Shown: positions 24,069 through 42,760 of the stretch, in pieces
Numbering within the stretch: the stretch's first letter is position 1
Layout: each line of letters starts with the position of its first letter
Source: Eledone cirrhosa
Taxonomy: Eukaryota
Reading direction: 5' to 3'
Length of the DNA stretch: 64,000 nucleotides
Assembly: GCA_964016885.1 (NCBI GenBank)
Contig: OZ024741.1
Coordinates: forward strand, 125,364,001-125,428,000
Program-made: the position numbers and the translations under genes
Notes under the pieces: model-generated
The model's database searches: none
Told to the model about the DNA's origin: nothing
What the model saw: only the letters and a program-made list of their open reading frames with translations

Positions 24069-24200
24069 ATATATATATATATAGGTAAGTTATTCCGGGT
24101 TGAATCGGAGGTAACCACAGTAAGTAAGGTACTCAATACATAGAGTATAAAAGTTTTAATATAGATGAGATTCTACAGAACTAGAACTGTTTCATTCTTT

Positions 24201-24257
24201 ATGAGATTCCTGATGATTTCTAAAGAATGAAACAGTTCTAGTCCTGTAGAATCTCAT
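24201..24257 (+). ncRNA. Type I hammerhead ribozyme with U.U at 10.1/11.1
   Basis: AUGAGAUUC-CUGAUGA-U-UUC-UAAA-GAA-U-GAAA-CAG-UUCUAGUC-CU-GUA-GAAUCUCAU; 9-bp stem I, 4-bp stem III. Confidence 0.72.
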
Positions 24258-24280
24258 CTATATTAAAACTATATATATAG

Positions 24281-24457: not shown

Positions 24458-25090
24458 TGACAATGCGAAGAAATACCTATGATGTCTAGTAGACAACTGA
24501 TGATGGATATTCCTAACTTCTATTTCTAATTCTTCATTTTTTATACATAATTGCAACAACACAGCTTGCCATTTTTTATTCATATATGCTTTCCCCTTTG
24601 CTGTAACCTGTCTTTTTTCTCTTCCCTTGCTGCTATCCTCTTTCTCTCTCCCCCTTCTCTCTCCTTCTCCCTCTTACTTTCACTCACCCCCTCGGCTAGC
24701 CTCTTCCTCGCACTTTCACTCACTCACTCTCTGCTACTCACCCTCTCTCTCATTTCCTCCATCTTCTCGCTCACATCTGTACGGTTAAGATGTGTCTTTC
24801 GTCTCCTCGTTAATATTCACCTGTTCGAAATGAATTGATTTTTTCATTTTTTCCTCTCTTTACGTTGCCTCACCATTCGTGTGTTTACCTGTCTTTCTCT
24901 TTCTCCACCCAGCTCTTTTTATCCCAATAACTTATTTTAGTTATTGTATCGCCCTAGACGGAGGTATATTGTCTGTACTGCGAAGAAATACCTATGATGT
25001 CTAGTAGACAACTGATGATGGATATTCCTAACTTCTATTTCTTCATTTTTTATACATAATTTCAACAACACAGCTCGCCATTTTTTATTC
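24458..25090 (+). mobile_element. Non-autonomous Penelope-like relic with direct repeats (about 24464-24582 and 24979-25091) among TA/CA microsatellites
   Basis: About 110-nt direct repeat around a pyrimidine-rich spacer; carries the rearranged hammerhead. The PLE assignment is inferred from the architecture. Confidence 0.55.
24949..25019 (+). ncRNA. Putative rearranged (non-circularly permuted) hammerhead ribozyme with kink-turn, copy A
   Basis: GGUAU-A-UUGUCUG...A-GAAA-UACC-UAU-GA-U-GUCUAG-UAGACAA-CUGAUGA-U; covaries with the copy at 40851. Confidence 0.7.
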
Positions 25091-40236: not shown

Positions 40237-40368
40237 CAAAACACCCTTTATCCATCCAAACTTTGTAGCAGCTTGAGGTGCACTTGAAGAAGTAGTATTA
40301 ACTTCATTACCTCCCCTTTCTTCATCTTGTAATAATGGAGCAGCAACTTTATTTTTCTGTTCATCATC
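40237..40368 (-). CDS. SLC12A2: NKCC/SLC12 cotransporter exon (end of N-terminal tail): DDEQKNKV...AATKFGWIKGVL
   Basis: Acceptor ttgcag, donor gtaagg, 132 nt, phase 0-0; KFGWIKGVL is the SLC12 pre-TM1 signature. The symbol means NKCC-like; exact orthology was not tested. Confidence 0.93.
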
Positions 40369-40850
40369 CTGCAATGAAATAGACAAAATTATATAAATAT
40401 GCATGTTTATTAAAATCACAGACTCACAGAAGAGATGACGAAGGAATATGACGAGTGGAGAGATGCTGTGCTGAGAAGAACCCATCCAACTCTTCTAAGC
40501 ATGGAAATGAACATAAAAATGATGATGATGATGATACACACACACACACACATATGTAGTTGGTGGATGAGAGAAAAGAGTACTCAATACCAAGTAGAGT
40601 TTAAATATTCATTTATTATGTCTAAGTAGTGAGTCTTGTAGGCCCATATATATATATATTCCTTCCTTGCTCACATTTCAACCAGGTTTGATGGTCTTTA
40701 TTCTCTCGTTCACGATTTCACCAAATTTATATTCATAGAAATCTGGGACTTGTCTCTTTCTTCATCACTTTCTGTTGCTTAAACCATTTTGTTTGTTTAC
40801 CCTAGCGTCCCCTTTATTTACATGTCCCAACGACTTTTTTTAGCCGTTGC

Positions 40851-40921
40851 TCGCACCAACCTGAGGTATATGGTCTTTAAAGCGATGAAATGCCTATGAC
40901 GGTTGGAAGACCACTGATGAA
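40851..40921 (+). ncRNA. Putative rearranged hammerhead ribozyme with kink-turn, copy B
   Basis: GGUAU-A-UGGUCUU...U-GAAA-UGCC-UAU-GA-C-GGUUGG-AAGACCA-CUGAUGA-A; ungapped alignment to copy A with compensatory changes. Confidence 0.7.
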
Positions 40922-40980
40922 GGACAAACTTCTTCATATGTAACCCATTTGCAACGCCGCAGCTCCATTATTATCATATT

Positions 40981-41052
<72 letters not shown>

Positions 41053-41533
41053 GCTAGCAAAAAAAAACTACCCTTCGGGTGGTTTTCTGCTAGCATGTGT
41101 GGTGTACATATTGATATTACATGAAAATATACATATATACATGCATATAGATATGATATATCAAATAAAATCATAATTGAGAATATGCACAGAAATTGAA
41201 GAGAGACTGTGTTACACTCTCTTCTGTAATCAGTAAAGTAATCCATGATACATTTAAAAAAGACGATATTATATATAAACGAAACAGGAGAAAATTAGCG
41301 ATGGAAATATAAATCTTATATAACTATGCAAATATATGAATGTTTACATAAGTGATGTAATAAAGTGTTCTGATATAACTGACGCTAACCGGAAGTGAAG
41401 ACATTTGAAAATTTTTCAAGCAATGAATCTTACATTAAGCAATCATTATATATAAGAATATTTATGTTTAATCAACAGCCACGAAATTTAGTACAAAAAT
41501 TATGTAATGTTCCTTCATTATTTATTCAAAGAA

Positions 41534-41912
41534 GGGCGGTGGATTGGCAGTATCGGTGGAGGGTCGGACGCCATGCTTTCCAGCATAGTTACGTCCCTTT
41601 ACCATCTGAGTTCAAATCCCGCCGAGGTTGACTTTGCCTTTCATCCTTACGGGGTCGATAAAATAAAGTACCAGTAATGCACTGGGTAATTGCTGGCCTT
41701 GTGCCTAAAGTAGAAACAATTATTAGGGCGGTGGATTGGCAGTATCGGTAGAGGGTCTGACGCCATGCTTTCTAGCATAGTTACGTCCCTTTACAGTCTG
41801 AGTTCAAATCCTGCCGAGGTTAACTTTGCCTTTCATCCTTACGGGGTCGATAAAATAAAGTACCAGTAATGTACTGGGTAATTGCTGGCCTTGTGCCTAA
41901 AGTAGAAACAAT
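41534..41912 (+). mobile_element. Two tandem near-consensus copies of tRNA-derived SINE family 1 (about 190 bp)
   Basis: A box TGGCAGTATCGG, B box GAGTTCAAATCC, central GCCTTTCATCCTTACGGGGTCGATAAAATAAAGTACCAG, tail AGTAGAAACAATTATT. Confidence 0.9.
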
Positions 41913-42760
41913 TATTTATTCAAAGTAATCTAACTTATTTTACGAATGGGATAAAAAAATATATTCAGGACACAGTCCCACACTCCTCTTTTATTATATT
42001 ATGATTGTCATGTAGGCCCAAATATTGTTATTGTGACGATAATGAAAAACAGAAATTACTAGTTAGAATAGCTGAAGATGTTGAGGGCAATAATTCACGG
42101 TCAAATTACAACAGAAAGTGGGGTTACATCGAGTAAAAACAATACTTCTTCACCCACATATTCCTGGGAGGGTCGTGAGAGCAGAGTCCTCACACACTCC
42201 TTCCAGCGACTCCTGTCAGAAGCAACTCTCTCCAACTGATCTGGCTAGGTCCCTAAGCATGACCAGCCAAGCTCATAGATGTTATCCAACCATCTTGCTC
42301 AGGGTCTACCCTTGGGTCTCTTGCCAGTTGGTTTTGCCCATAAAATCTGTCCAGCAATTCTTTCCAGAGACATTCTAGCCACATGTCCATAGTACCGGAG
42401 CTGTGATCTCTCAATTCAGAGAAGTAGCAACTCTACCAGGAGTGACTCTCTTATTGCTGAGCTATGCATGTTATCATGTAACATTACTCCAAAGACCCTT
42501 CGGAGGAATCCCATTTCGGCCGCTTGTAAACGTGATCATATTATTTCAGTCATTACCCAAGATTCATGACCATAGGTAAGGGTTGGCACGAATACCAAAT
42601 CGAAGATAGTGAGTTTGGCAATACAAACAATACATGTAACAATAAATTTCCAACAAGAAAAATCCCCCTATGGAAAGTGGGATGACTATCTTTGATAATT
42701 CAGGGATAAAATCCCACATAAAATCCCAGGTTATTCTCTATCACCAGAGGCATTGAAAGT

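What the first reader, a model, noticed from the sequence alone, without database searches (positions are those of the whole stretch)
40640..40980. Second, independently diverged element carrying the rearranged hammerhead (copy B)
Seen: upstream of the 71-nt motif this locus shares little with 24600-24948 beyond pyrimidine richness. Downstream only short blocks are shared (GGA, TTCTTCAT, TTGCAAC..CAGCT..CCATT), yet the motif length and pairings are strictly kept. Both loci lie beside TA/CA microsatellites. Inference: two subfamilies of a Penelope-like (or retrozyme-like) element in which selection acted on the RNA fold during replication. The motif would then mark a retroelement lineage rather than a chance local duplication.
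Basis: partly seen in the sequence, partly recalled or inferred. Interest (0 to 1): 0.75.

Follow-up and report, generated by a model that had tools for sequence, protein, structure and literature searches.

The report
Rewired hammerhead of Naiad-type mobile repeats
This is one of over ten thousand copies of a small protein-less jumping repeat whose RNA carries a likely self-cutting hammerhead with its parts strung in an unusual order, and the same layout sits at the tail of many Naiad retrotransposons that were reported to lack a normal hammerhead; cutting has not been tested.

Summary
The motif is real. Copy B (40660-40985) is a 5'-truncated unit of a 627-bp non-coding repeat; a core pattern matches 12,727 times in the genome (control 0). 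Copies show Penelope-like marks: two fixed 3' ends about 49 nt apart (60 of 77 segments), inverted arms, (TA)n targets. The hammerhead blocks run cleavage site, GAAA, CUGAUGA (type SGC, so far reported from environmental RNA), but the stem II strand sits at the 5' end of the motif and a kink-turn joins stem III to the helix that ties stems I and II. 13 of 23 pairs change on both sides. Of 49 Naiad loci from metagenomes, 18 carry this order (17 with the displaced stem II) and 3 type CSG; antisense and shuffled controls give none. Cleavage and expression are untested, and the protein that moves the young copies is unknown, since all Naiad copies scored here are broken. Not found in the papers searched; this scan noted the same fold before, in this and other genomes.

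The parts
40660..40985 (+). Copy B: 5'-truncated single unit (unit positions about 415 to 121, counted from the predicted cut) of a 627-bp non-coding repeat
   Evidence: 40 scored copies 97-100% identical
40851..40921 (+). 71-nt permuted hammerhead motif, strand order: stem II 5' strand, interaction helix, cleavage block, GAAA block, CUGAUGA block
40851..40854 (+). Displaced 5' strand of stem II (UCGC), pairs with GCGA at 40882-40885
   Evidence: 98% of cells paired but almost invariant in this family; 5-6 bp equivalent with varied sequence in 17 of 18 Naiad loci
40856..40861 (+). Interaction helix 5' strand, pairs with 40901-40906; ties the outer ends of stems I and II
   Evidence: 4 of 6 pairs change on both sides
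40862..40864 (+). Predicted kink-turn, non-bulged strand (UGA); bulged strand at 40895-40900 (3-nt bulge, then G-A)
   Evidence: both G.A pairs in 97 of 105 distinct copies
40865..40870 (+). Stem III 5' strand and cleavage triplet AUA; pairs with 40890-40894; predicted cut after 40870
   Evidence: sequence; 99% of cells paired, 1 of 5 pairs changes on both sides
40871..40877 (+). Stem I 5' strand, pairs with 40907-40913
   Evidence: 6 of 7 pairs change on both sides
40886..40890 (+). Position 11.1 (U40886, pairs with A40921) and core GAAA
   Evidence: pair types UA 18, AU 6, UG 6, CG 4, other 5 of 39
40914..40921 (+). Core CUGAUGA and position 10.1
40940..40985 (+). Tail between the short and the long fixed 3' end of the family
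   Evidence: 21 and 39 of 77 segments end at unit positions 72 and 121
40976..41052 (.). (TA)n target tract on the 3' side (a short (TA)n lies at 40647-40659 on the 5' side)
24583..25090 (+). Copy A: full unit of an older subfamily; motif at 24949-25019, predicted cut after 24968
   Evidence: (relatives 80-95% identical)
24461..24582 (+). Partial tandem copy upstream of A (period 515 bp), lacking the cleavage block
40237..40368 (-). Exon of the host gene (SLC12/NKCC-like, name from recalled motifs); both copies lie antisense to this gene, outside the exons found

Best explanation
Copy B is a truncated insertion of a non-coding Penelope-like repeat, likely descended from the 3' end of a Naiad retrotransposon, whose RNA is predicted to fold into a self-cutting hammerhead with reversed strand order and a stem II strand supplied from the 5' end of the motif. 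Shown: family size, unit length, two fixed 3' ends in (TA)n, scattered 5' ends, tandem and inverted arms, covarying helices, and the same layout behind Naiad reading frames. Inferred: the RNA is transcribed through tandem units; the four helices and a kink-turn rebuild the standard hammerhead core (stem II stacked on stem III, stem I held beside stem II by the interaction helix); it cuts after A40870 and gives unit-length RNA that may circularise; a Penelope-type RT-endonuclease acting in trans nicks (TA)n and starts reverse transcription about 72 or 121 nt downstream of the cut, reading through the uncut or religated ribozyme, which yields monomers, multimers and inversions. Which protein moved the young B copies is not known.
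For: Copy number 12,727 against 0. 627-bp tandem unit, no reading frame. 60 of 77 segments end at two positions 49 nt apart, inverted pairs with one arm of each, matching the tail described for these elements (PMC8557442 passages; PMC11167929 passages). Structure: 96.7% of 896 cells paired against 87.2% shuffled and 32-47% when slid; 13 of 23 pairs change on both sides. Kink-turn: 97 of 105; 85 of 105 have the 3b.3n pair that allows folding in Mg2+ by the rule in PMC4382518. Two more distant families in G000 keep the layout with other stem II sequences. Naiad link: 18 SGC-order and 3 CSG hits in 49 metagenome Naiad loci, 0 canonical, 0 of 49 antisense, 0 of 245 shuffles; displaced stem II of 5-6 bp, closed by G-C, in 17 of 18, against 3 of 144 decoy windows. 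Broken Naiads of G000 carry an SGC-ordered motif about 600 nt behind the frame, with a U3-A8 core, a compensatory variant known from natural hammerheads (PMC3088659 passage). Published Octopus Naiad consensus ends show, by eye, the same layout, a kink-turn and a 12-nt block shared with copy A.
Against: No cleavage or expression data. The displaced stem II is only 4 bp and nearly invariant in this family, so its support comes from other families. Only 6 of the top 25 mutual-information pairs are predicted pairs; subfamily descent inflates covariation. Most copies were fetched by patterns that demand the core, so core conservation (93 of 105) is partly circular. 28 of 49 Naiad loci gave no hit, some with 800-1,000 nt of 3' sequence. 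BLAST finds no homology of units A or B to the Naiad 3' regions held here, apart from a nested B copy in L199; descent from Naiad rests on shared layout and a by-eye comparison. All 150 Naiad RT matches listed for G000 lie in frames under 300 aa (150 of 3,281 candidates scored), though B copies are 97-100% identical. In copy B a hairpin of -8.2 kcal/mol can bury the core. In another Penelope-like element the ribozyme was not needed for insertion in vitro.
Confidence: 0.78

Rival explanations
1. The fold is real but is kept mainly as a binding or start signal for the RT (or an L7Ae-type protein at the kink-turn), and cuts poorly or only with protein help.
For: Stem II is short and split; a competing hairpin covers the core in copy B; insertions read through the motif; in the Anolis element cutting needed the protein and was not needed for insertion (PMC11167929 passages).
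Against: The catalytic letters, the A15.1-U16.1 pair, a non-G at the cleavage site and the compensatory U3-A8 change in Naiad remnants are what cutting requires; tested SGC and CSG ribozymes cut (PMC10085705).
Confidence: 0.12
2. The repeat did not descend from a Naiad; it is a separate retrozyme that gained the same layout independently or by capture and uses canonical C-terminal-endonuclease elements.
For: No BLAST homology to Naiad 3' regions held here; Naiads of G000 are broken and carry a different variant; frames of 844-1,096 aa exist for canonical elements; the kink-turn is absent from 18 of 18 metagenome Naiad hits.
Against: The layout is found behind Naiad frames across the RT tree and in none of 35 stretches 3' of C-terminal GIY-YIG hits (strict threshold); published Octopus Naiad ends share the kink-turn and a 12-nt block with copy A (by eye).
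Confidence: 0.08
3. The strands pair between two RNA molecules or two tandem units, as in dimeric Penelope hammerheads, so no pseudoknotted monomer forms.
For: Tandem arrays are common; dimer cleavage is known for minimal Penelope hammerheads (title seen in the supplement; content recalled).
Against: Stem III is not palindromic; linker lengths (0-1 nt at the helix junctions in most of 18 loci) and the kink-turn fit a compact monomer.
Confidence: 0.05
4. Chance resemblance in a satellite or local duplication.
For: Rfam gives no hammerhead match.
Against: Dispersed copies, compensatory changes and recurrence in unrelated Naiad sequences.
Confidence: 0.01

Closest known systems
Type-SGC hammerhead ribozymes (HRIMA-1 and variant; Eckert et al. 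2023, PMC10085705; read: parts 1-6 of 8 and supplement passages)
   Same: Block order cleavage site, GAAA, CUGAnGA; short linker from stem I to stem II; a helix that joins the other sides of stems I and II; same core letters.
   Different: There stem II follows CUGAnGA directly and the blocks were assumed unbreakable; here stem II and the interaction strand lie 5' of the whole motif, leaving 0-1 bp after the core. There no SGC example was found in genomes of known organisms; here over 12,000 copies sit in an animal genome. A kink-turn is added. Their search patterns demand CGAAA, CUGAUGAG and 2 or more pairs behind it, which this motif fails.
Type-CSG hammerhead (same paper; two similar metagenome sequences tested)
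   Same: Same reversed ring of strands; 3 of 49 Naiad loci here carry it, and nematode Naiad consensus ends show it by eye.
   Different: CSG opens the ring before stem I; the window motif opens it right behind the core, at position 9/10.1 or 10.1/10.2.
Non-LTR retrozymes of animals (PMC7229834, part 2 of 6 read; bioRxiv 2026.07.22.740005, part 1 and passages read)
   Same: Non-coding tandem repeats, monomers to multimers, one hammerhead per unit, tied to Penelope-like elements.
   Different: Those carry type I hammerheads in 150-450 bp units; this unit is 515-630 bp with a permuted fold. RNA circles are shown there, untested here.
Naiad Penelope-like elements (Craig et al. 2021, PMC8557442; passages and supplement parts read)
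   Same: (TA)n targets, 5' truncation, partial tandems, inverted arms, tail at one end, permuted hammerhead in the 3' region.
   Different: This repeat encodes no protein; Naiads were described as lacking canonical hammerheads, with 8 'half-core' cases left unexplained.

Membership tests
Hammerhead ribozyme | Core CUGAnGA, GAAA and UH cleavage site | tested here: met
   93 of 105 copies (sample biased to intact cores)
Hammerhead ribozyme | Stems I and III flank the core and covary | tested here: met
   6 of 7 and 1 of 5 pairs change on both sides
Hammerhead ribozyme | Site-specific self-cleavage | not testable with these tools
   no assay; no RNA reads
Canonical types I, II, III | Circular order C-G-S of the three blocks | tested here: not met
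   order is S-G-C; no Rfam hammerhead match
Type-SGC hammerhead | Block order S, G, C | tested here: met
Type-SGC hammerhead | Helix joining the outer sides of stems I and II | tested here: met
Type-SGC hammerhead | Stem II strand (3 bp or more, G10.1-C11.1) directly 3' of CUGAnGA | tested here: not met
   1 bp in the window family; the rest comes from 40851-40854
Standard kink-turn | 3-nt bulge followed by tandem G.A and A.G between two helices | tested here: met
   97 of 105 copies; definition from PMC4382518
Standard kink-turn | Kinked shape, L7Ae binding | not testable with these tools
   no structure or binding data
Non-LTR retrozyme | Non-coding tandem repeat with a hammerhead in each unit | tested here: met
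Non-LTR retrozyme | Type I hammerhead | tested here: not met
   permuted fold
Non-LTR retrozyme | Linear and circular unit-length RNA | not testable with these tools
   no RNA run available
Penelope-like element insertion | Fixed 3' ends with a tail at one end, 5' truncation, tandem and inverted arms | tested here: met
Naiad (autonomous) | Frame with N-terminal GIY-YIG and C-terminal RT | tested here: not met
   no such frame in the unit or attached to copies examined
Naiad-derived non-autonomous element | Sequence descent from a Naiad 3' end | tested here: inconclusive
   no BLAST hit to held Naiad 3' regions; shared layout and by-eye likeness to published Octopus Naiad ends

The most novel reading that the evidence does not exclude
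An active hammerhead of an undescribed wiring, the reversed ring opened inside the core behind CUGAUGA, with stem II completed by a remote 5' strand and here bent by a kink-turn, is the usual ribozyme of Naiad retrotransposons across animals and of abundant parasites derived from them, which have outlived their own Naiad and ride on another Penelope-type protein.
Probability: 0.65. Interest if true: 0.88.

Novelty: new variant of a known kind. Interest (0 to 1): 0.8.

Why it matters
It would move non-circularly permuted hammerheads from a rarity of environmental RNA to a common part of animal genomes, show that a block held to be unbreakable can be split, and explain why Naiads were thought to lack hammerheads, which restores the ribozyme as a near-universal feature of Penelope-like elements. 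It offers a 71-nt construct with thousands of natural variants for cleavage assays and structure work, and a way to trace how SGC, CSG and the split form arose as different openings of one ring in tandem or circular RNA.

Tried and rejected
Rfam: no hammerhead or other ribozyme match in the window. Single-strand folding cannot show the pseudoknots. No RNA holder listed; the four runs laid were contigs and say nothing on ends or expression. Canonical C-terminal-endonuclease elements as the coding parent: SGC motifs near them (L082, L084, L088) are separate insertions (L082 read in full: split off by a long (TA)n tract); several carry their own type I hammerhead. A pattern for the published Octopus Naiad motif and one for the RT peptide GIPMGGNCSP found 0 in G000; a DFSTLYT pattern gave 3 matches against 3 in the control, yet all three proved to be Naiad remnants on translation. 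A homologue search with a remnant RT found nothing; the profile search did. Viral contigs hold no Naiad relative. A profile search of G000 for intact Naiads could not be run, so an intact, distant Naiad is not excluded. The RT tree is the quick tree, with long branches; it groups the 3 CSG loci but gives no direction of change. An alternative stem II register with G.U pairs in copy B was set aside because it does not carry over to copy A. Mutual information alone does not isolate the helices.

Full report
1. Observation. The sequence at 40851-40921 holds the three hammerhead blocks in the order cleavage site (GGUA UA), GAAA, CUGAUGA. It aligns without gaps to 24949-25019, 53 of 71 identical. 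Rfam has no hammerhead match. A strict core pattern matches 4,348 times in G000 (3.0 Gb) and a looser one 12,727 times, with 0 for the reversed controls. Over 28 subfamily pairs identity is 0.69 upstream, 0.77 in the motif and 0.63 downstream; only the motif is free of gaps (pairs whose upstream part was truncated or microsatellite were dropped).

2. The element. Copy B has 40 scored relatives at 97-100% identity (40 of 2,533 candidates scored); copy A's relatives are 80-95% identical (40 of 2,561 scored). Arrays show a 627-bp non-coding unit; A has period 515. Mapping 90 loci on the B unit gave 77 distinct segments away from locus edges: 39 end 121 nt and 21 end 72 nt behind the predicted cut, mostly running into (TA)n, while 5' ends are scattered; inverted pairs usually have one arm of each kind. 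This matches the tail, partial tandems and inversions described for Penelope-like elements (PMC8557442, passages) and the two RT start sites measured for one of them (PMC11167929, passages). Copy B is a 5'-truncated monomer with the long end. Both copies lie antisense to an SLC12/NKCC-like gene, outside the exons found (gene name from recalled motifs), so they would not cut its pre-mRNA.

3. The fold. From 155 loci, 227 profile hits gave 142 full-length motifs, 137 in register, 105 distinct, 8 clusters of 3 or more. Five pairings recur: stem I (40871-77 with 40907-13), stem III (40865-69 with 40890-94), a 6-bp helix (40856-61 with 40901-06), UCGC/GCGA (40851-54 with 40882-85), and one pair 40886-40921. 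On 39 distinct rows chosen across clusters (at most 5 per cluster) 96.7% of 896 cells pair, against 87.2% in shuffles and 32-47% when slid; 13 of 23 pairs change on both sides. Caveats: subfamily descent inflates this, only 6 of the top 25 mutual-information pairs are predicted ones, and UCGC/GCGA hardly varies. After a lead from earlier scan notes I tested a kink-turn between stem III and the 6-bp helix: both G.A pairs are present in 97 of 105, after a 3-nt bulge, and 85 of 105 have 3n=G or 3b=C, the condition for folding in Mg2+ alone (PMC4382518, abstract and introduction). A sharp bend there would let that helix reach from the end of stem III to the end of stem I (inference). A looser pattern found further families in G000 (414 matches against 58 in the control); two of them keep the layout with other stem II sequences.

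4. Comparison with known permutations. Eckert et al. 2023 (PMC10085705; parts 1-6 of 8) named this block order type SGC, showed cleavage at 0.007-0.19 per minute, found it only in metatranscriptomes and reported none in genomes of known organisms. They assumed that CUGAnGA and its stem II strand cannot be separated, and their patterns demand this (supplement passages). Here that strand and the interaction strand stand at the 5' end. The motif is thus a circular permutation of the SGC/CSG ring opened just behind the core. It works like an SGC hammerhead (inferred) but fails one defining feature.

5. The Naiad link. Craig et al. reported that Naiads lack canonical hammerheads and listed 8 half-core cases. 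Reading parts of their consensus file by eye (part 24 and search passages; not all 54 sequences), I saw the split SGC layout at the 3' ends of two Octopus Naiads, three Acropora ones, and entries placed with cubozoan, hydrozoan and ostracod sequences, and type CSG in nematode entries; others showed nothing clear. To test this with tools I found Naiad remnants in G000, used 9 RT fragments as a profile, confirmed N-terminal GIY-YIG in 6 of 10 long hits, and fetched 61 metagenome loci. Twelve had under 150 nt behind the frame and were dropped. Of 49, 18 have an SGC-order and 3 a CSG hammerhead on the sense strand, none a canonical one, 28 none; antisense 0 of 49, shuffles 0 of 245 (the score credits a displaced stem II for SGC only, equally in the controls; some loci are near-duplicates). 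In 17 of 18 the upstream strand gives a 5-6 bp stem II closed by G-C next to GAAA, against 3 of 144 decoy windows, and 17 of 18 have an interaction helix of 5 bp or more. None of the 18 has the kink-turn. SGC hits occur in several parts of the quick RT tree and the CSG loci group together. G000's own Naiad remnants carry an SGC-ordered motif about 600 nt behind the frame, with a U3-A8 core, a compensatory change known in nature (PMC3088659, passages).

6. What is open. Units A and B have no BLAST match to Naiad 3' regions held here except a nested copy; descent rests on layout and on a 12-nt block plus kink-turn shared by eye with the published Octopus Naiad ends. The 150 Naiad RT matches listed for G000 all lie in frames under 300 aa, though B is young; canonical elements with frames of 844-1,096 aa exist and are the likely, unproven, helpers. 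That the host is an octopus-like cephalopod is an inference from these resemblances. Cleavage and expression are untested.

7. Novelty. Eight literature searches found type-SGC only in the 2023 paper and no report of permuted hammerheads in Naiads or animal genomes; passages of two 2026 preprints do not mention it; retrozyme background is from PMC7229834 (part 2 of 6). The library lacks most subscription papers. Earlier notes of this scan (14 findings, at least 4 genomes) reached the same reading; they are not independent support. Verdict: real, a new variant of a known kind, interest 0.8.

Noticed in passing
window 24162-24265: Palindromic insertion with a canonical type I hammerhead (core at 24210, + strand) right beside copy A; the same family occurs in L081, L083, L088 and L170.
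   Followed up: partly
window 15655 (+) and 62168 (-): Two copies of a repeat with a likely type I hammerhead that has a branched stem II and a self-complementary stem III (by eye).
   Followed up: no
window 55294 (-): Minimal type I hammerhead-like motif with 2-bp stem III, of the Penelope kind (by eye).
   Followed up: no
window 18772-40368 (-): At least 11 exons of an SLC12/NKCC-like cation-chloride cotransporter gene (motifs recalled).
   Followed up: partly
window 41533-41916: Tandem dimer of a 192-bp dispersed repeat, likely a SINE.
   Followed up: no
L076:3809-6622, L077:3388-5919, L078:2675-5962: Penelope-type elements with open frames of 938, 844 and 1,096 aa; candidates for the helper protein; no hammerhead seen in the 900 nt behind the frames.
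   Followed up: partly
L248, L198, L227, L230, L235, L202 (3' of the RT): The Naiad remnants of G000 have a hairpin inserted between stem I and GAAA and a U3-A8 core, a further variant of the permuted fold.
   Followed up: partly
L157-L182: Two older non-coding families (unit about 540 bp in one) with the same split layout; one takes all of stem II from the 5' strand, the other keeps one pair behind the core.
   Followed up: partly
L253-L255, L263, L270, L271: Naiad loci with 500-1,000 nt of 3' sequence but no hammerhead core; they may carry another ribozyme or none.
   Followed up: no
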